A DNA stretch of 43,981 nt from a virus (Duplodnaviria > Heunggongvirae > Uroviricota > Caudoviricetes), in the IMG/VR virus record IMGVR_UViG_3300045988_012512, positions 1-43,981 of that record. One strand, 5' to 3'. A model generated the notes under the pieces. It was not told the DNA's origin. It saw only the letters and a list, made by a program, of their open reading frames with translations, and did no database searches. A program made the position numbers and the translations under genes. Position 1 is the stretch's first letter, and the number at the start of each line of letters is the position of its first letter. Of the stretch, positions 18,259-22,883 are shown one piece after another.

Positions 18259-18526
18259 CTTATCATTTAAACATAGAAACGGCGTAATCTCAGTAAACCA
18301 GTTACTTTTTACACAAGCAATAGAGTATGGCCCTTCCGAACGCGTCAGCGTAACTACACTCAGGACTTACGTCCCGCTCCGTTACCTGCCCGCGCCGCGG
18401 TCGCTTGTTCATACTTCACAAGCTCAGGTGGAGCTTATCATATTTTCAGTGAAAAGTCAACTATTCGAATAGTTTATTCCAACGTTTACAATTGAGTGGA
18501 ATAACTGGAATACGTAAATAAATAGT

Positions 18527-18555
18527 TTGCGCACACCAACATAATAGGGTACTAT
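18527..18555 (+). promoter_or_regulatory. sigma70-type promoter (TTGCGC-17-TACTAT) for the DnaN-like gene
   Basis: Spacer and -10 region nearly identical to the promoter at 9029. Confidence 0.55.
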
Positions 18556-18582
18556 TCAGTTAACTTAAACAGGAGATGAGAA

Positions 18583-19104
18583 ATGGTTACTACAGTAATT
18601 ACTTTCCCTGCGTATGTAGGGGCAAAAATCTGCAGGGCTAAAAATGATGTGCGCTACTATTTGAACGCTTTTTACATAGACCCTGAAGGATTGATAGTGT
18701 CTACGGACGGTCATAGATTGTTCTGCGACAATGTGAAGACCAATGTTGAGAAAGGGACTCTCATAGACATCAAAGGGAGAGAGCCTTCTAAATTTAACTA
18801 CGCAGAGGTAAACCACGACAACGGCAGTGTAACTTTCTATGACGATAATCGTGCGCTTATATGCACGCTTCCGGTAGATGTTGTAGAAGGAAACTTTCCT
18901 GACTGGAGACGCGTGGCGAACATCACACCGGGTGTTGTCGATAGTATAGGGTTCACTCTGCGCTATTTGGCAGACGCGTACAAGATTTCTAAGGCATACA
19001 AAAATGAAATTGCTCGTTTCGATTTCCAGGACCAAACCAGAGGATGTAAAATACTATTTTCAAACACGGCCTTTATGGTGTTAATGCCTGCGCGATTTAA
19101 ATAA
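18583..19104 (+). CDS. truncated DNA polymerase III beta sliding-clamp (DnaN) homologue
   Basis: DVRYYLN, STDGHRL, FPDWRRV and C-terminal VLMPARFK match E. coli DnaN motifs DVRYYLNG, TDGHRL, FPDYRRV, VMPMRL; AGGAG RBS, own promoter and terminator. Confidence 0.7.
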   Translation: MVTTVITFPAYVGAKICRAKNDVRYYLNAFYIDPEGLIVSTDGHRLFCDNVKTNVEKGTLIDIKGREPSKFNYAEVNHDNGSVTFYDDNRALICTLPVDVVEGNFPDWRRVANITPGVVDSIGFTLRYLADAYKISKAYKNEIARFDFQDQTRGCKILFSNTAFMVLMPARFK

Positions 19105-19108
19105 AACT

Positions 19109-19131
19109 AAGGCCCCATAATGGGGCCTTTT
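19109..19131. terminator. bidirectional intrinsic terminator (AAGGCCCC-ATAAT-GGGGCCTT)
   Basis: GC stem with T-run; lies between convergent genes. Confidence 0.7.
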
Positions 19132-19132
19132 A

Positions 19133-19591
19133 TCATTCTGTCTTAGAGACCTTCGCCGCTTTGCTTACGGCCTCTGCACCATCGGCATCAGTAACTTTAA
19201 CGAAGTATTCACCAGCCGCATTAACAGTCAGAGACAGAGCCTCTTCCGGGGCGTTCACCACTTCCTTCCCGTCTTTGTACCAGGTCAGTACATACGGCGC
19301 TTTACCCGCCTTAACTTCGACGGTGATGGTGGCGCTACCGTCGACCAGCTCGGTGTCTTTCGGTTGCACAGAGAAATACACATCACCAGCATCTGCCAGA
19401 TACGGAATCTCATAAAGCATACCAGCAGCAGAGAGTGCGATACCGGTCTTGTCCGCATACGGCATCTCGTCTACAGGTGTACCTAGTACACTTTCATCTT
19501 CAACGTAGGTTACGTTCTCACCAGAACCGGATACACGGGCGTACTGGACTACGCGACGCGACGGCACATCAGTTACTTTAAAAAAGCCCAT
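19133..19591 (-). CDS. Ig-like domain protein
   Basis: C-terminal Ig-like signature PYVLTWYKDGKEV...GEYFVKVTDADG. Confidence 0.5.
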   Translation of the reverse strand: MGFFKVTDVPSRRVVQYARVSGSGENVTYVEDESVLGTPVDEMPYADKTGIALSAAGMLYEIPYLADAGDVYFSVQPKDTELVDGSATITVEVKAGKAPYVLTWYKDGKEVVNAPEEALSLTVNAAGEYFVKVTDADGAEAVSKAAKVSKTE

Positions 19592-19594
19592 AAA

Positions 19595-20218
19595 CTAAAC
19601 CTCTTTCATTGAGTTAATCTTACGTAAGACGCCTTCGAAAAGGCGTGGGTCTATGCTATCGCAAAGACCTTTGTATTCATATGCTAATTCAATTTTTCTA
19701 TGAAACCATGCTACGTGTGCCTCTTGAGCGGTTTCGTAAGCGCCTATTTGTTCAGATACGCCATCCACGGATACTTGAGCGATGAATCTTTTCTTTTGTT
19801 TATGGAAATGTACGCCGAGTGGGTGTTCGCCTCGAAGAGCGTCGTGGGCTGTTAGGAAAGTATTGAGGGATTTAGGGATGAAAACACAGTTAGAAGCATC
19901 GTAAACCTTATTTCCCGGGTTAAGTAAATCCTTATCTATCTGCCACCCAGGTACATAAAAATCATCAAACCAGACCTTGAAATTACTGAACACCAACCAA
20001 TCGTCCGACACGCGGCAACCTATATAAGTTCTGTTTCTTTGCTGCCATTTCTTGTCGTAGCACCTCTTTAACATGTTCTTCCATACGGCGTAGGACGCTA
20101 TATGCACCCCTCCGCAACTTATTGGTGAAACATCGTTAATACCCACACCAAAAACAATTCCCATATTAAACCCTATAAGAAAACCCCATGAAGATTGGTC
20201 GATGCCAGAGATAGGCAT
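19595..20218 (-). CDS. free-standing homing-endonuclease-like protein (HNH-type N-terminal region plus AP2-like DNA-binding domain)
   Basis: WKNMLKRC...YIGCRVSDDW...IDKDLLNPGNKVYDASNC then AP2-like GAYETAQEAHVAW; AT-rich with rare codons. Confidence 0.5.
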   Translation of the reverse strand: MPISGIDQSSWGFLIGFNMGIVFGVGINDVSPISCGGVHIASYAVWKNMLKRCYDKKWQQRNRTYIGCRVSDDWLVFSNFKVWFDDFYVPGWQIDKDLLNPGNKVYDASNCVFIPKSLNTFLTAHDALRGEHPLGVHFHKQKKRFIAQVSVDGVSEQIGAYETAQEAHVAWFHRKIELAYEYKGLCDSIDPRLFEGVLRKINSMKEV

Positions 20219-20288
20219 ACCTTCATGGGGTTATATTCTTTCTCTATTTTTAGTAGTTCACCGACCAAAGCTAGCTACTAGATATACT

Positions 20289-21365
20289 TTATACCGACCT
20301 AAGATATTCAGCAACCCTGTTATCTAACGCCGCCATCTCCTTCAAGGTTAAAGGTCTACCAAAAGCGTCGACGGATATTACCCGGAATTCCTCTGGGGAT
20401 ATCCCACTATTCCTGAATATAGCACCGCGGGTAGGTCCGAGTGCTTCATCCACGAACCATGCCGGTTGCTGTTTCAGGAACTCGTAATAGGTGGTGTCTG
20501 CGCTTACCTGCATACCGCCGTCCGCACCCTTAGCCGCGCGTTTTGCACCTTTATCTAGGAAGTCGAACTCCGAACTGATTACCGGTGCAGTGGTACTTCG
20601 ACATCCAAAATGGGCGGGGGGCATCGGACCTTTACCGATTTCCCACGTCATCCCGTCTCTGGCCCTGCAAATCGTACTGGTACGACTGTCCAGCGTTGAC
20701 ACCCATTCGTATTTCTCGATGATGTCGTCGTTCTGGCGGTATGTCTCGTTGCGGGCTTCGTTGGATACGTGAGACAGCGCGGTGCGGATTACCGTAGCCG
20801 CGTTGCGTTCAGAGATGTCCGCCAGCCCACCAGCGCCTACGACATTTTTAACAATCTGCCGTGTGGTTTGGCCCTGAACAAACCCCATCTTAACGCCGGT
20901 TACGAGGCGCGCGGCCTCCGTTTCACCCCAGCCTGCCATCAGCTTAGTGAAATCGACGGGCTTGTCGCTTAATGATAAGGGTTGAAACTCGGCAGCGGAC
21001 CACACCTGTTCGGCGGTAGGCGTAACAAATTCCGCGTCAACGTTGGCGGTCAGTGTTTTTACGTTCCACTCAGCCTCATATGCGGCCAGTTCCTTAAGGT
21101 CTTCTGCCAGTTTTGTTTGCCAGTCACCTGTAAGCCCGGTTAATGCTTCTTCGAGGTCGCGTAACAGTTTATTCAGTCGCGCAGTGCTTCGCCCGTCATC
21201 GCCGAAAAGCAGCACCTGCCGTTTGATTTCGTCCCGCATCTCCTGAATAAACGGTGCGAGGTCTTTCACTTCGCCGGATGCGGCGCGTTGCAGCCATATC
21301 TGGTGGCTGATTAGAGATGTAAGTAAGCTCATAGATAAACCCTGTGGCGCTAAAGTTAATAGCAT
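20289..21365 (-). CDS. minor head morphogenesis protein (Mu F-like)
   Basis: WVSTLDSRTSTICRARDGM...HFGCRST motif; directly downstream of portal. Confidence 0.6.
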   Translation of the reverse strand: MLLTLAPQGLSMSLLTSLISHQIWLQRAASGEVKDLAPFIQEMRDEIKRQVLLFGDDGRSTARLNKLLRDLEEALTGLTGDWQTKLAEDLKELAAYEAEWNVKTLTANVDAEFVTPTAEQVWSAAEFQPLSLSDKPVDFTKLMAGWGETEAARLVTGVKMGFVQGQTTRQIVKNVVGAGGLADISERNAATVIRTALSHVSNEARNETYRQNDDIIEKYEWVSTLDSRTSTICRARDGMTWEIGKGPMPPAHFGCRSTTAPVISSEFDFLDKGAKRAAKGADGGMQVSADTTYYEFLKQQPAWFVDEALGPTRGAIFRNSGISPEEFRVISVDAFGRPLTLKEMAALDNRVAEYLRSV

Positions 21366-21401
21366 ACTATAAGAAAGCCCCTTTCGGGGCTATATGTGAA
21401 C

Positions 21402-22883
21402 TTACTGCTGAGTGACATCTTGTTGCTGCGCCGACTGCGGAATCTCTCCTGCCACCTGAGTAACAGCACCTAACGGCAGAGGTGCGTCCTCAATAGCGTT
21501 CTGAATATCCTCGTCGGTCCAGTCAGTCACCCCTGCTTTACGCAACGCGGCGTAGTATGCGGTCGCTGGCAGCAGACCGGCATTAATGTCCGCCATCCAC
21601 TGAGCGCGGTCCTGAGCGGTCATCGGTTGCAGGAAGAACTCCATATTCAGCTTGAACTCAATCTCAGTACCGTCACTAAGCCCGAGCATCGTGGCTACCC
21701 AGCGCAACGCATCGGTATACGCCATGCTTACGTTACGTGCGATTGTCGCCATAACGGACGTGTCAGCACCACGTTGCAGGCGGGCCGATTCAGCGGTGAT
21801 TTGCTGCGTCGGGGTAATAAGCTGTGCGCCAATCTGGATGGCCTGATTCTCTTTATCCAGCATATTCTGTTTAGCCAGGTTATTCTCTCCTGCCTGAACA
21901 AGAAACGCGTTGCCGCCGTAACCGATGTTATGGCCCGAACGTGAACCCATTCGCACGCCGTGGGGGTTGACCTCTTTCCACTGCTCCATGCTCATGTTCT
22001 CGCCCGGGGCGATGAACAAAGTTGGCTGGCCTACTACGAAGCTGGATTCCTCATTGTCCGCGCTGTTGCGGAAATGCCCGATATTAAGTTCAGCCAACGG
22101 CAGCAAAGGTGCGTCATCAACCGTCGCGTCGTTATTACTCGCACCAATAAACGTGAATGGGATTTTTCCGCGCAACTGTTCGCCCAGTTCCGGGAAGATT
22201 TCTTTTACATCACCCTGCGCACCACCTTCGGCATCGAAACGGTATATGCGCTGGCGATAGCGGCTGTCAATCAGGTCAAGGACACGGTATTGCTCACCGA
22301 ACTTGGTTTCAAACTCTGCGCCAGGTTCTGAGTATTCCCACACCTCACGCAGCACGACCATTGTCACACGGTTAACCGAACCGATGCGGGTCAGTCGCCA
22401 GTTGATGATGTTCTCTGCGGTATAGAAAGCGATGACCGGGTTTAATAATCCAGCGTTCTGCTCTGCTGCCGTTGCGGCGGCGGTCTCCGGGGCGTCCACC
22501 AGCAACCCGCCACGACCCACCGAGTCAATCTCCATTAGCGTATCCTGGGCGTGCTGCCACAGCCCTACACCTGAGCCATCCGCGTTGCGTAGCAGGTACT
22601 CTAGTTCAGGAGGGATAATCTGCTCCGGGTCTTTGCGCATGACACTGCCAACCATCCCCGCCAGAGTGCGCTTGGTGAAGTTGTAGCAGATAGCGCCGTT
22701 CTCATATTCTTCCTGGCGCTGTGCTGCGTAGGCCGGATCCGGTTCGTTCTTCCCTACGTTGCGCAGATAGCGAATAAGGTCACCTTCCAGAGCGTGGCGC
22801 ACCTTCTGCCATTTATCGAAGTGATGCAGCCATTCCCGGTGTTTTGTCTTAACACCCTGATTCTGACCGTTCATAGTTAACAT
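21402..22883 (-). CDS. portal protein
   Basis: 493-aa ORF immediately downstream of terminase large subunit. Confidence 0.6.
   Translation of the reverse strand: MLTMNGQNQGVKTKHREWLHHFDKWQKVRHALEGDLIRYLRNVGKNEPDPAYAAQRQEEYENGAICYNFTKRTLAGMVGSVMRKDPEQIIPPELEYLLRNADGSGVGLWQHAQDTLMEIDSVGRGGLLVDAPETAAATAAEQNAGLLNPVIAFYTAENIINWRLTRIGSVNRVTMVVLREVWEYSEPGAEFETKFGEQYRVLDLIDSRYRQRIYRFDAEGGAQGDVKEIFPELGEQLRGKIPFTFIGASNNDATVDDAPLLPLAELNIGHFRNSADNEESSFVVGQPTLFIAPGENMSMEQWKEVNPHGVRMGSRSGHNIGYGGNAFLVQAGENNLAKQNMLDKENQAIQIGAQLITPTQQITAESARLQRGADTSVMATIARNVSMAYTDALRWVATMLGLSDGTEIEFKLNMEFFLQPMTAQDRAQWMADINAGLLPATAYYAALRKAGVTDWTDEDIQNAIEDAPLPLGAVTQVAGEIPQSAQQQDVTQQ

What the first reader, a model, noticed from the sequence alone, without database searches (positions are those of the whole stretch)
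19595..20232. Free-standing homing-endonuclease-like gene with its start region locked in a 12-bp perfect inverted repeat
A gene with an HNH-type N-terminal region and an AP2-like DNA-binding domain sits between the Mu-F-like head gene and an Ig-like protein gene. It is AT-rich with rare codons, typical of selfish insertions. AACCCCATGAAG (20183..20194) and its exact complement CTTCATGGGGTT (20221..20232) flank the annotated start codon, and no good RBS is present; a hairpin sequestering initiation is a known way of restraining homing endonucleases.
Basis: partly seen in the sequence, partly recalled or inferred. Interest (0 to 1): 0.55.

Follow-up and report, generated by a model that had tools for sequence, protein, structure and literature searches.

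The report
Pseudoknotted leader RNA of homing-endonuclease cassette
The inverted repeat is real, but it does not trap the start codon: it is the main stem of a conserved, pseudoknotted leader RNA of about 105 nt, with its own promoter-like site, that travels with a selfish AP2-type endonuclease gene inserted between two head genes of an E. coli phage and probably throttles that gene's expression.

Summary
The window is a Kagunavirus (96.5% identical to phage fPoEco01). On the minus strand, between the Mu-F-like gene and a Hoc-like Ig gene, sits a sporadically present gene of the described 'IPA-HNH' family. Its AP2 domain is confirmed. Its N-domain is only weakly HNH-like, with an invariant D-K-D where His is expected.

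The ATG it encloses (20218) is not the start. Relatives show the start is ATG 20164 (189 aa), downstream of the hairpin and outside it.

The hairpin is the lower stem (P3) of a leader RNA carried by the cassette:
- a -10/-35-like promoter ending 5-7 nt before hairpin P1;
- a P1 loop that pairs with the 8-nt internal loop of the long hairpin (pseudoknot);
- then a U-rich tract, a Shine-Dalgarno site and the ATG.

In 16 distinct leaders, from five pseudoknot sequence types and at least four genomic contexts, 96/96 pseudoknot cells and 191/192 P3 cells pair, with many compensatory changes. Rfam 15 has no match.

The likeliest role is a cis-acting attenuator or insulator that limits endonuclease expression. 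This is untested. The protein is ordinary; the RNA motif appears to be undescribed.

The parts
20289..20425 (-). Diverged 3' end (about 135 nt) of the Mu-F-like gene that moves with the cassette. Probably the cleavage-immune or co-converted tract, and therefore where the target in insert-free phages should lie.
   Evidence: Window against the insert-free phage Ivi: 8-12 of 15 nt identical per block over the last ~135 nt of Mu-F. Identity is 15/15 further upstream and over the first 300 nt of the Hoc-like gene (alignment).
20309..20314 (-). -35-like hexamer TTGCTG, inside the last Mu-F codons.
   Evidence: TTGNNN lies 16-18 nt upstream of the -10-like hexamer in nearly all of the 16 leaders. 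It is weak here (3/6) and the scan tool does not call it in the window.
20286..20291 (-). -10-like hexamer TAAAGT, overlapping the Mu-F stop codon TAA. It ends 5 nt before hairpin P1.
   Evidence: All 16 leaders have a hexamer with A2, T6 and at least 4/6 matches ending 5-7 nt before P1. The background chance is 0.044 per sequence. The scan tool calls TTGAGA-16-TATGAT in L191 and TTGCAA-16-TATGAT in L219 at the same relative position.
20251..20280 (-). Hairpin P1: stem 20275-20280 / 20251-20256, 18-nt loop CUAGCUUUGGUCGGUGAA.
   Evidence: 5 of 6 stem pairs show changes on both sides among 14 leaders. The loop is invariant within this subfamily.
20262..20269 (-). 5' strand of the pseudoknot (UUUGGUCG, in the P1 loop).
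   Evidence: Complementary to the internal loop at 20194-20201. Five sequence types covary, with 96/96 cells paired in the 6-bp core.
20233..20250 (-). Purine-rich single-stranded linker (AAAAAUAGAGAAAGAAUAU). AGAGA may pair with the apical loop UCUCU as a tentative second pseudoknot.
   Evidence: The class-wise complementarity is AGAGA:UCUCU, GAGC:GCUU, GAAGC:GCUUU and GUAGCA:UGCUAC. It is statistically weak and absent in L011.
20182..20232 (-). Lower stem P3: 20221-20232 / 20182-20193. Junction GU: 20219-20220. Upper stem P4: 20214-20218 / 20202-20206 (AUGCC/GGCAU, which contains the annotated ATG). Apical loop: 20207-20213. 3' internal loop CGACCAAU: 20194-20201.
   Evidence: -26.7 kcal/mol, z = -6.9. 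P3 pairs in 191/192 cells, with 7 of 12 positions showing compensatory pair changes. All four P4 positions differ compensatorily between the two subfamilies.
20173..20181 (-). U-rich tract UUUUCUUAU directly after P3. It is terminator-like. UUCUU can also pair with AAGAA of the linker.
   Evidence: The composition is conserved while the sequence changes: UUCCUUUUG, UUUUUACGA, CUUAUUUAU, UUUAAUUUU. The extended pairing appears in the fold.
20162..20174 (-). Real translation start: weak SD AGGG (20171-20174) and ATG (20162-20164).
   Evidence: Homologues start here. The Schulenburg record annotates this start and its RBS. In relatives the upstream ATG is out of frame or stopped.
19595..20164 (-). 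Homing-endonuclease-like gene, 189 aa, IPA-HNH family.
   Evidence: phrog_953 at 3.3e-79. tblastn finds relatives in 1505 phage records, including ICP1 and Barba phages. The family is described in PMC10448857. The AlphaFold model has pLDDT 94.
19829..20164 (-). N-terminal domain (aa 1-112), atypical HNH-like. Invariant D77-K78-D79 (19928-19936), Y88, C93, N101.
19676..19822 (-). AP2-type DNA-binding domain (aa ~115-163).
19598..19609 (-). Last codons of the gene (M-K-E-V). They carry the SD (AAAGAGG) for the Hoc-like gene and resemble the original Mu-F end (L-K-G-D-stop) of empty sites.
   Evidence: ATGAAAGAGGTTTAGTTTATG here against CTGAAAGGGGATTAATGATG in insert-free phages.

Best explanation
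The inverted repeat is the closing stem (P3) of a long hairpin. That hairpin forms the 3' half of a structured leader RNA of about 105 nt, which belongs to the mobile endonuclease cassette.

On the minus strand the cassette reads, in order:
1. A weak sigma-70-like promoter (-35 at 20314-20309, -10 at 20291-20286).
2. Hairpin P1.
3. A purine-rich linker.
4. The long hairpin P3/P4.
5. A U-rich tract.
6. A Shine-Dalgarno site and the true ATG (20164).
7. The 189-aa IPA-HNH/AP2 gene.

The P1 loop base-pairs with the 8-nt internal loop of the long hairpin, forming a pseudoknot.

Shown here: the structure, its pseudoknot, its promoter-like site, its constant linkage to this gene family in several genomic contexts, and the position of the true start outside the hairpin.

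Inferred: the leader acts in cis as a transcription attenuator or insulator. The GC-rich base of P3 followed by Us would work as a leaky intrinsic terminator placed after the promoter and before the RBS. Only a fraction of transcripts, whether from the cassette's own promoter or from the upstream head-gene operon, would then reach the endonuclease ORF. The very stable fold just upstream of the RBS would also uncouple its translation from the Mu-F gene. The result would be a low, context-independent dose of a potentially toxic nuclease, which suits an element that lands in different operons of different phages.
For: Structure:
- 14 leaders at the Mu-F|Hoc site: 96.5% of cells paired, 10 pairs with changes on both sides. 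Covariation score is 0.28 against 0.11 in shuffles (0/500 reach it) and at most 0.10 for slid controls.
- A covariance model built from these finds the same element immediately upstream of endonuclease genes only 38-39% identical, in other genomic contexts: L230 at 42.5 bits, L219 at 27 bits, L191 at 21 bits.
- Pooled over 16 distinct leaders: pseudoknot 96/96 cells paired with 5 of 6 positions covarying across five sequence types; P3 191/192 paired; all four P4 positions change compensatorily.
- The pseudoknot partner sits at a fixed distance, -51 to -54 or -36/-37 nt. The chance of finding such a partner anywhere in the 130 nt upstream is 0.012-0.06 per type.
- G-U pairs outnumber C-A mismatches 7 to 1 on the sense strand, so the structure is in the mRNA-sense RNA.

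Promoter: a -10-like hexamer ends 5-7 nt before P1 in 16/16 leaders, against a background of 0.044. The scan tool calls it in L191 and L219.

Terminator-like features:
- A stem of 12-16 bp at -21 to -27 kcal/mol.
- At least 5 U in the next 8 nt in all types, although the sequence differs.
- The base and tail match a canonical terminator-like hairpin elsewhere in this phage.

Linkage to the gene: the element is absent from empty sites and was never found without the gene downstream.

True start.

Precedent: terminators at the 5' end of mobE and segF, and RNA structures limiting I-TevI, segB and Aeh1 mobE (PMC2988022).
Against: - No transcript data exist. Termination, the transcription start site and the promoter are all inferred from sequence.
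- The scan tool does not call a promoter or a terminator in the window's own leader. The promoter there is weak (3/6 and 4/6). The hairpin's interior is far larger than that of classical terminators.
- Part of the U tract can pair with the A-rich linker. It could equally be an AU-rich translation enhancer.
- A plain terminator needs no pseudoknot and no invariant loops, so something more specific may be going on.
- In L191 an SSB gene lies directly downstream with no intervening promoter-like site. That argues against efficient termination.
- Only about 5 of 80 sampled distant family members carry the motif. Several relatives abut the upstream gene with no leader at all. The family therefore does not require it.
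Confidence: 0.45

Rival explanations
1. Translational control. One version is the reader's: the hairpin sequesters the initiation region. A softer version is that the very stable pseudoknotted fold just 5' of the RBS hinders 30S standby binding, or re-initiation and 70S sliding from the Mu-F cistron. Translation rather than transcription would then be throttled.
For: RBS-sequestering hairpins are established for I-TevI/II/III, segB and Aeh1 mobE. A stable hairpin just upstream of a free RBS is described for seg43(25) (PMC2988022). In the window-type leaders a small extra hairpin (UUCUUAUA/UAUGGGAA) covers the true AUG, giving it an unpaired probability of 0.01-0.09. The window's SD is weak (AGGG).
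Against: The conserved hairpin contains neither the true SD nor the true AUG. The ATG inside it is out of frame or stopped in five relatives and absent in the second subfamily. The small AUG-covering hairpin is not conserved: the AUG is 0.4-0.9 unpaired in the other lineages.
Confidence: 0.18
2. The promoter, P1, linker and terminator-like hairpin form a small-RNA gene. Its terminated product of about 105 nt is the functional molecule and acts in trans, for example on host or rival-phage transcripts or on the endonuclease mRNA. The endonuclease is expressed only by read-through.
For: The layout is that of an enterobacterial sRNA: a 5' hairpin, an A/purine-rich single strand, and a terminator hairpin with a U tail. 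Loop sequences are invariant within a subfamily.
Against: The element was never found apart from the endonuclease gene. The 'seed-like' loops are complementary to other parts of the same RNA and covary with them, which points to intramolecular structure. No trans target was identified.
Confidence: 0.1
3. The leader is a sensor or operator: a riboswitch-like or protein-binding element, possibly bound by the endonuclease itself in autoregulation like I-TevI or T4 gp32. Its pseudoknot state would decide whether the terminator or the RBS is active.
For: The tertiary pairing between a hairpin loop and the internal loop of the expression-platform hairpin recalls riboswitch architectures (my own knowledge of the SAM-I and cobalamin classes). 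The fold is more elaborate than a terminator needs. A second pseudoknot is possible. T4 gene 32 uses a 5' pseudoknot as an autoregulatory nucleation site (cited in PMC10690425).
Against: Few nucleotides are invariant across the two subfamilies. The paired segments change freely, which favours structure over a specific ligand pocket. No alternative antiterminator pairing was found. AP2 domains are known as dsDNA binders.
Confidence: 0.12
4. RNA processing or stability element. It would be an RNase III or RNase P site, or a self-cleaving ribozyme, that separates the endonuclease message from the Mu-F message and leaves a protective hairpin on one or both products.
For: The long, nearly continuous helix (P3, pseudoknot and P4 together make about 25 bp if stacked) resembles phage RNase III sites, which are two stems with an internal loop (my own knowledge of T7 sites). 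RNase E processing is reported for segB, segG and Aeh1 mobE transcripts (PMC2988022). With a transcription start at the foot of P1, P1 would be a 5'-terminal stabilising hairpin.
Against: No match to any Rfam ribozyme or processing motif at E <= 10. There are no strongly conserved junction nucleotides of the kind ribozymes show. The conserved promoter makes separation from upstream transcripts less necessary.
Confidence: 0.1
5. A chance palindrome or a DNA-level site (a protein-binding palindrome or a recombination scar) with no RNA role.
For: A perfect 12-mer repeat within 60 nt is expected about 0.16 times per 44 kb, so the bare observation is not decisive.
Against: Compensatory changes keep the pairing while the sequence changes. 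G-U pairs are strand-specific. The long-range pseudoknot covaries.
Confidence: 0.02

Closest known systems
[quoted passage not shown]
   Same: Same architecture: an N-terminal HNH-like domain too divergent for Pfam HNH_3, plus a C-terminal AP2 domain. It is free-standing, sits next to essential or structural genes, and lies at a boundary of genetic exchange. tblastn links the protein to ICP1 and Barba-phage members.
   Different: That paper, as far as I read it, describes no conserved leader RNA. Nuclease activity of this clade, which has D-K-D in place of the His motif, has not been shown as far as I could find.
RBS-sequestering hairpins of T4-type endonuclease genes (I-TevI/II/III, segB, Aeh1 mobE; PMC2988022)
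   Same: An RNA structure at the 5' end of a phage homing-endonuclease gene, presumed to keep expression low.
   Different: In those cases the SD and/or AUG lie inside the stem, and a late promoter inside the structure releases them. Here the SD and AUG lie outside, the promoter-like site precedes the whole structure, and there is a pseudoknot.
seg43(25) hairpin of Aeromonas phage 25, and the intrinsic terminators in the 5' ends of T4 mobE and segF (PMC2988022)
   Same: A very stable hairpin just upstream of a free RBS (seg43(25)). A leaky terminator at the start of an endonuclease gene limits its transcripts (about 30% termination for mobE).
   Different: Those are simple hairpins with no reported tertiary pairing, no associated promoter and no conservation across unrelated phages.
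T4 gene 32 leader pseudoknot
   Same: A 5' pseudoknot followed by an unstructured A/U-rich RBS region in a phage mRNA.
   Different: That one is the nucleation site for cooperative binding of an ssDNA/RNA-binding protein. The protein here is a dsDNA-binding AP2 nuclease, and the fold is different.
HEARO / omega-RNA of IscB (HNH-endonuclease-associated RNA)
   Same: A conserved, pseudoknotted RNA encoded directly upstream of an HNH-type nuclease gene at the edge of a mobile element.
   Different: No Rfam match. The protein is 189 aa with no RuvC domain, far too small for known RNA-guided nucleases. The leader's variable segments do not match the empty-site sequence, by my reading of the sequences.

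Membership tests
IPA-HNH homing endonuclease genes | C-terminal AP2 DNA-binding domain | tested here: met
IPA-HNH homing endonuclease genes | N-terminal HNH-related domain not detectable with Pfam HNH_3 | tested here: met
   No Pfam or NCBIfam hit for the protein, and no HNH model matches any of 37 members. phrog_953 'HNH endonuclease' matches at 3.3e-79. Depositors report HHpred probability 97-98 to I-HmuI.
IPA-HNH homing endonuclease genes | Sequence relationship to the ICP1 founders (gp59, gp115-116, gp209) | tested here: inconclusive
   tblastn hits ICP1 genomes at 27% identity, E = 8e-11, and Barba phages at 31%. The ICP1 hit is an unnamed ORF near 112 kb. I could not confirm which gp number it is.
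Homing endonuclease gene (functional definition) | Presence/absence polymorphism at one site among close relatives, with altered flanking target sequence | tested here: met
   Relatives with and without the insert are shown. Against phage Ivi the flanks are 100% identical except for a ~135-nt tract at ~70% identity next to the insert.
Homing endonuclease gene (functional definition) | Site-specific cleavage of the insert-free allele | not testable with these tools
   Needs purified protein, or co-infection crosses, with the Mu-F 3' end of an insert-free phage as substrate.
Canonical HNH (beta-beta-alpha-Me) nuclease | Conserved His general base and Asn/His metal ligands; beta-beta-alpha fold | tested here: inconclusive
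RBS-sequestering regulatory hairpin (I-TevI / mobE type) | SD and/or start codon of the real ORF lie within the stem | tested here: not met
   The true start at 20164 and its SD lie 3' of the hairpin. Accessibility is not consistently reduced.
Intrinsic (rho-independent) terminator | GC-rich stem immediately followed by a U tract | tested here: inconclusive
   The stem is 12-16 bp with a CCCC/GGGG base, followed by at least 5 U in 8 nt in all types. The enclosed region is 26-30 nt, the scan tool does not call it, and part of the U tract can pair upstream.
Intrinsic (rho-independent) terminator | Transcripts end at the U tract | not testable with these tools
   Needs Term-seq, 3' RACE or in vitro transcription.
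Any Rfam 15 family | Covariance-model match | tested here: not met
   Window 19900-20500 gives only noise (mir-454 at E = 0.56, fstAT at E = 4.4). Five loci of the second subfamily give no match at E <= 1.

The most novel reading that the evidence does not exclude
The leader is not a passive terminator. It would be a new class of functional RNA dedicated to a selfish nuclease. It could be a riboswitch-like or protein-sensing attenuator whose pseudoknot decides when the endonuclease is made. More radically, it could be a catalytic or cofactor RNA (self-cleaving, or bound by the His-less HNH/AP2 protein) that the nuclease needs.
Probability: 0.15. Interest if true: 0.85.

Novelty: new variant of a known kind. 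Interest (0 to 1): 0.6.

Why it matters
Control of homing endonuclease genes is understood almost only from T4-type phages, where simple hairpins hide the ribosome binding site. This window shows a different, portable solution for the widespread IPA-HNH/AP2 family. The cassette carries its own promoter-like site and a pseudoknotted leader, and the covariation support for that fold is as strong as for many curated RNA families. It recurs with endonuclease genes only about 38% identical, in unrelated genomic contexts.

This gives experimenters a defined RNA of about 105 nt, with ready-made natural compensatory variants, for testing how a selfish nuclease is kept harmless to its phage.

It also corrects the start codon used in several GenBank records. 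The 207-aa annotation reads the RNA motif as protein.

Finally, it narrows the likely cleavage target to the last ~135 nt of the Mu-F-like gene.

Tried and rejected
1. The N-terminal 18 codons as coding sequence: rejected. They are poorly conserved as protein, the frame changes with loop length, and stops or frameshifts occur in relatives.
2. A conserved upstream ORF starting at the ATG inside the hairpin and coupled to the gene: rejected. The ATG in the 5' arm is lost in most relatives. The ATG in P4 is absent from the second subfamily. Its reading frame relative to the gene is inconsistent.
3. Sequestration of the true RBS: not conserved.
4. Rfam: nothing.
5. Metagenome scan with a 15-mer from the P1 loop: the pattern was too short.
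6. Genome scan and one viral hit (L018) with the P4 core pattern: coding-sequence chance matches, with covariance-model scores of only 11-16 bits over the core.
7. blastn of second-subfamily leaders against isolate phages: no match. That subfamily is known only from metagenomic viral contigs.
8. Family members in other contexts (Kuttervirus SeKF_64, Klebsiella JD001, Salmonella ZK22, Kagunavirus VIPECOTH07): no leader.
9. A second pseudoknot (linker with apical loop): suggestive by class, but statistically weak and missing in L011. Kept only as tentative.
10. A guide-RNA idea: the variable leader segments do not match the empty-site sequence (my reading), and the protein is too small.
12. A second copy of the gene or the leader in the window: none.
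Full report
**What the window is.** The region 18500-22000 is 96.5% identical to Escherichia phage vB_EcoS_fPoEco01 and about 94-96% identical to fFiEco02 and Schulenburg, all Kagunavirus, Guernseyvirinae. The genes here run on the minus strand:
- portal, 21402-22883;
- a Mu-F-like head morphogenesis gene, 20289-21365 (PF04233 at 1e-12; phrog_241);
- the ORF in question, 19595-20218;
- a Hoc-like Ig decoration gene, 19133-19591 (phrog_3945 at 3.8e-84).

**The observation.** The perfect 12-bp inverted repeat is real. It is the best short-range inverted repeat in the window. A perfect 12-mer within 60 nt is expected only about 0.16 times in 44 kb (my arithmetic). As RNA the 51-nt hairpin has -26.7 kcal/mol, z = -6.9. 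It encloses the ATG at 20218 that opens the longest ORF. The gene is AT-richer than its neighbours (GC 0.43 and GC3 0.43 against 0.52-0.55 and 0.50-0.63) and uses somewhat more rare codons.

**The protein.** Pfam and NCBIfam give no hit for it. PHROGs places it in phrog_953, 'HNH endonuclease', at 3.3e-79.
- Family: this is exactly the profile of the 'IPA-HNH' genes defined by Barth, Dunham and Seed (PMC10448857). They describe an atypical HNH domain, invisible to Pfam HNH_3, joined to AP2, abundant in ICP1, Barba and other phages. tblastn finds relatives in 1505 phage records, including ICP1 and Barba phages.

The protein part of the finding is therefore a member of a known family. Nuclease activity is inferred, not shown.

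**It behaves as a homing element.**
- Several Kagunaviruses (Ivi, fFiEco03 and others) lack the gene. In them the Mu-F stop overlaps the Hoc start.
- Against phage Ivi, the window is 100% identical over the first 300 nt of the Hoc-like gene and over Mu-F upstream of its last ~135 nt. Those last ~135 nt are only about 70% identical. That is the expected picture of a free-standing endonuclease gene carried with a diverged, presumably cleavage-immune, copy of its target.
- The last codons of the endonuclease ORF (ATGAAAGAGGTTTAG) resemble the original end of Mu-F in empty sites (CTGAAAGGGGATTAA). They preserve the Shine-Dalgarno site for the Hoc-like gene.
- Relatives of the gene at 51-81% identity, found in assemblies and metagenomes, all sit at this same Mu-F|Hoc junction in Kagunavirus- and Jerseyvirus-like genomes.

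**The start codon.**
- Homologues at 59-74% identity are 189-194 aa and begin at the Met equivalent to M19 (MVGIVFGVG...). The 18-20-residue extensions of the others are poorly conserved.
- In Salmonella phage pink and L150 the ATG inside the hairpin is followed by an in-frame stop. In L155, L011 and L152 it is out of frame.
- Good Shine-Dalgarno sites (GGAG, GAGG, GGUGAU) precede the M19-equivalent ATG in relatives.
- The Schulenburg record already annotates that start and its RBS.

The real ORF is 19595-20164. The '18 N-terminal codons' are an RNA element read as protein.

**The RNA element.** Aligning 14 distinct leaders from the Mu-F|Hoc site shows two hairpins.
- P1 has a stem that changes freely while keeping its pairing (UAGUAG/CUACUA, GGCAG/CUGCC, GUCAU/AUGAC, GCUGC/GCAGC) and an invariant 18-nt loop.
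- Counting pairs gives 96.5% of cells paired and 10 pairs with changes on both sides. The covariation score is 0.28 against 0.11 for shuffles (0/500 reach it) and at most 0.10 for slid controls.
- The P1 loop contains UUUGGUCG, the exact complement of the internal loop CGACCAAA.

**The same element elsewhere.** A covariance model built from this alignment finds nothing else in the window. It does find the same architecture immediately upstream of endonuclease genes only 38-39% identical, in viral contigs with different neighbours:
- L230, next to a RuvC-like gene;
- L219, next to structural genes;
- L191, between a YqaJ-like exonuclease gene and an SSB gene.

A pattern scan added L246, L259, L262 and L266. 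In these the internal loop and its upstream partner have both changed:
- CGUCUCA with UGAGACG;
- GCACUA with UAGUGC;
- GCAUCA with UGAUGC;
- UUCCUA with UAGGAA.

The partner always lies 51-54 nt upstream, in the loop of a P1-like hairpin.

**Pooled support.** Over 16 distinct leaders:
- the 6-bp pseudoknot core pairs in 96/96 cells, with five of six positions covarying;
- P3 pairs in 191/192 cells;
- all four P4 positions change compensatorily between the subfamilies.

The chance of finding the partner anywhere in the upstream 130 nt is 0.012-0.06 per type. G-U pairs outnumber C-A mismatches 7 to 1 on the sense strand, so this is an RNA of mRNA polarity. Rfam 15 has no match for either subfamily. 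A large catalogue of candidate phage RNAs (PMC10690425) does not mention such a motif in its main text. I could not check its supplementary models. A second pseudoknot, between the linker purines and the apical loop, is possible but weakly supported.

**A promoter in front.** Every one of the 16 leaders has a -10-like hexamer (A at position 2, T at position 6, at least 4/6 matches) ending 5-7 nt before P1. The background probability is 0.044 per sequence. Most have TTGNNN 16-18 nt upstream, and several have an extended TG. The scan tool independently calls TTGAGA-16-TATGAT in L191 and TTGCAA-16-TATGAT in L219. In the window the elements are weak: TTGCTG at 20314-20309 and TAAAGT at 20291-20286, the latter overlapping the Mu-F stop. 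The tool does not call them there. The cassette thus looks like an autonomous unit of promoter, structured 5' leader, RBS and endonuclease gene.

**How it most likely works.**
- What is shown is anatomy. The leader ends in a very stable hairpin with a C/G-rich base, followed by a tract with at least 5 U in 8 nt whose sequence varies but whose composition is kept.
- The base and tail (AUAACCCC...GGGGUUUUCUUAUAG) closely mirror a canonical terminator-like hairpin between the portal and Mu-F genes of this phage (AUAGCCCC-GAAA-GGGGCUUUCUUAUAG).
- The RBS follows 8-20 nt later and is not sequestered consistently.
- I infer a cis-acting attenuator or insulator: a leaky terminator and rigid fold that limits how many transcripts and ribosomes reach the nuclease ORF, giving a low dose independent of where the cassette lands.
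- Precedents are the terminators in the 5' ends of T4 mobE and segF, the RBS hairpins of I-TevI, segB and Aeh1 mobE, and the non-sequestering hairpin of seg43(25) (PMC2988022).
- Against a strong terminator: an SSB gene lies just downstream in L191 with no promoter-like site between, and the large interior of the hairpin is atypical.
- Against a plain terminator: a pseudoknot is not needed for termination. Translational hindrance, a sensor or operator role, processing, or a trans-acting small RNA therefore remain open.
- I put 0.45 on attenuation or insulation and spread the rest over those rivals.

**Scope.**
- The motif is not a general property of the family. Only about 5 of 80 sampled distant members have it. 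Members in Kuttervirus SeKF_64, Klebsiella JD001, Salmonella ZK22 and another Kagunavirus site lack it.
- It was never seen without the gene downstream.
- It is absent from empty sites.

**Verdict.** The endonuclease itself is ordinary. The leader, with its promoter, pseudoknot and terminator-like stem conserved across contexts and backed by abundant compensatory change, appears to be an undescribed RNA motif and is worth an experimental look.

Noticed in passing
window 21369-21391 (minus strand): The portal/Mu-F intergenic hairpin AGCCCC-GAAA-GGGGCU is followed by UUCUUAUAG and then directly by the Mu-F ATG. Its base and tail are nearly identical to those of the leader hairpin (AUAACCCC...GGGGUUUUCUUAUAG). 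The leader's covariance model hits it weakly (E = 0.42). The cassette may have copied, or converged on, a native inter-cistronic terminator design.
   Followed up: partly
window 19595-19700; hairpin at 19629-19646 (minus strand): The last ~100 nt of the endonuclease ORF are the most conserved part of the cassette. They are 85-95% identical at nucleotide level between cassettes whose middle parts are ~50-60% identical, and synonymous sites are conserved too. They contain a hairpin ACGCCUU-UUCG-AAGGCGU, which some relatives keep through G-U changes. This could be an RNA element, a recombination arm, or recent mosaicism.
   Followed up: partly
L149 (Salmonella phage pink, MT074430.1) 1913-2482: An intact 189-aa endonuclease ORF with its leader is present, but the record annotates only a 228-nt 'hypothetical protein' at its 3' end. 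Conversely, the fPoEco01 and K1ind3 records annotate the over-long 207-aa ORF.
   Followed up: yes
relatives of window 20289-21365 (phage Snoke, MK931441.1): In phage Snoke the same Mu-F-like capsid morphogenesis gene is annotated as containing an intein. This head gene therefore attracts more than one kind of selfish element (hit H9).
   Followed up: no
window 18583-19104 (+ strand) and 19109-19129: A beta-clamp-like ORF lies convergent to the Hoc-like gene. It is variably present or differently named (RusA-like, hypothetical) in relatives, and K1ind3 lacks the homologous stretch. A strong bidirectional terminator-like hairpin (AAGGCCCCAUAAUGGGGCCUU) separates the two.
   Followed up: no
L152 / L153 (Salmonella enterica assemblies GCA_022937885.1 and GCA_040431305.1): A close homologue of the cassette (P0007), with leader, Mu-F and portal genes, sits on ~43-kb contigs of bacterial genome assemblies. 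These contigs are probably whole Jerseyvirus-like phage genomes co-assembled with the host.
   Followed up: no
L219, L191, L230, L246, L259, L262, L266 (viral metagenome contigs): The second leader subfamily has an extra small hairpin with a CAAAA loop and a covarying stem (CCGC/GCGG, CCG/CGG, GGG/CCC) between P1 and the long hairpin. It also has a conserved linker ACAGGUAGCA complementary to the apical loop UGCUAC.
   Followed up: partly
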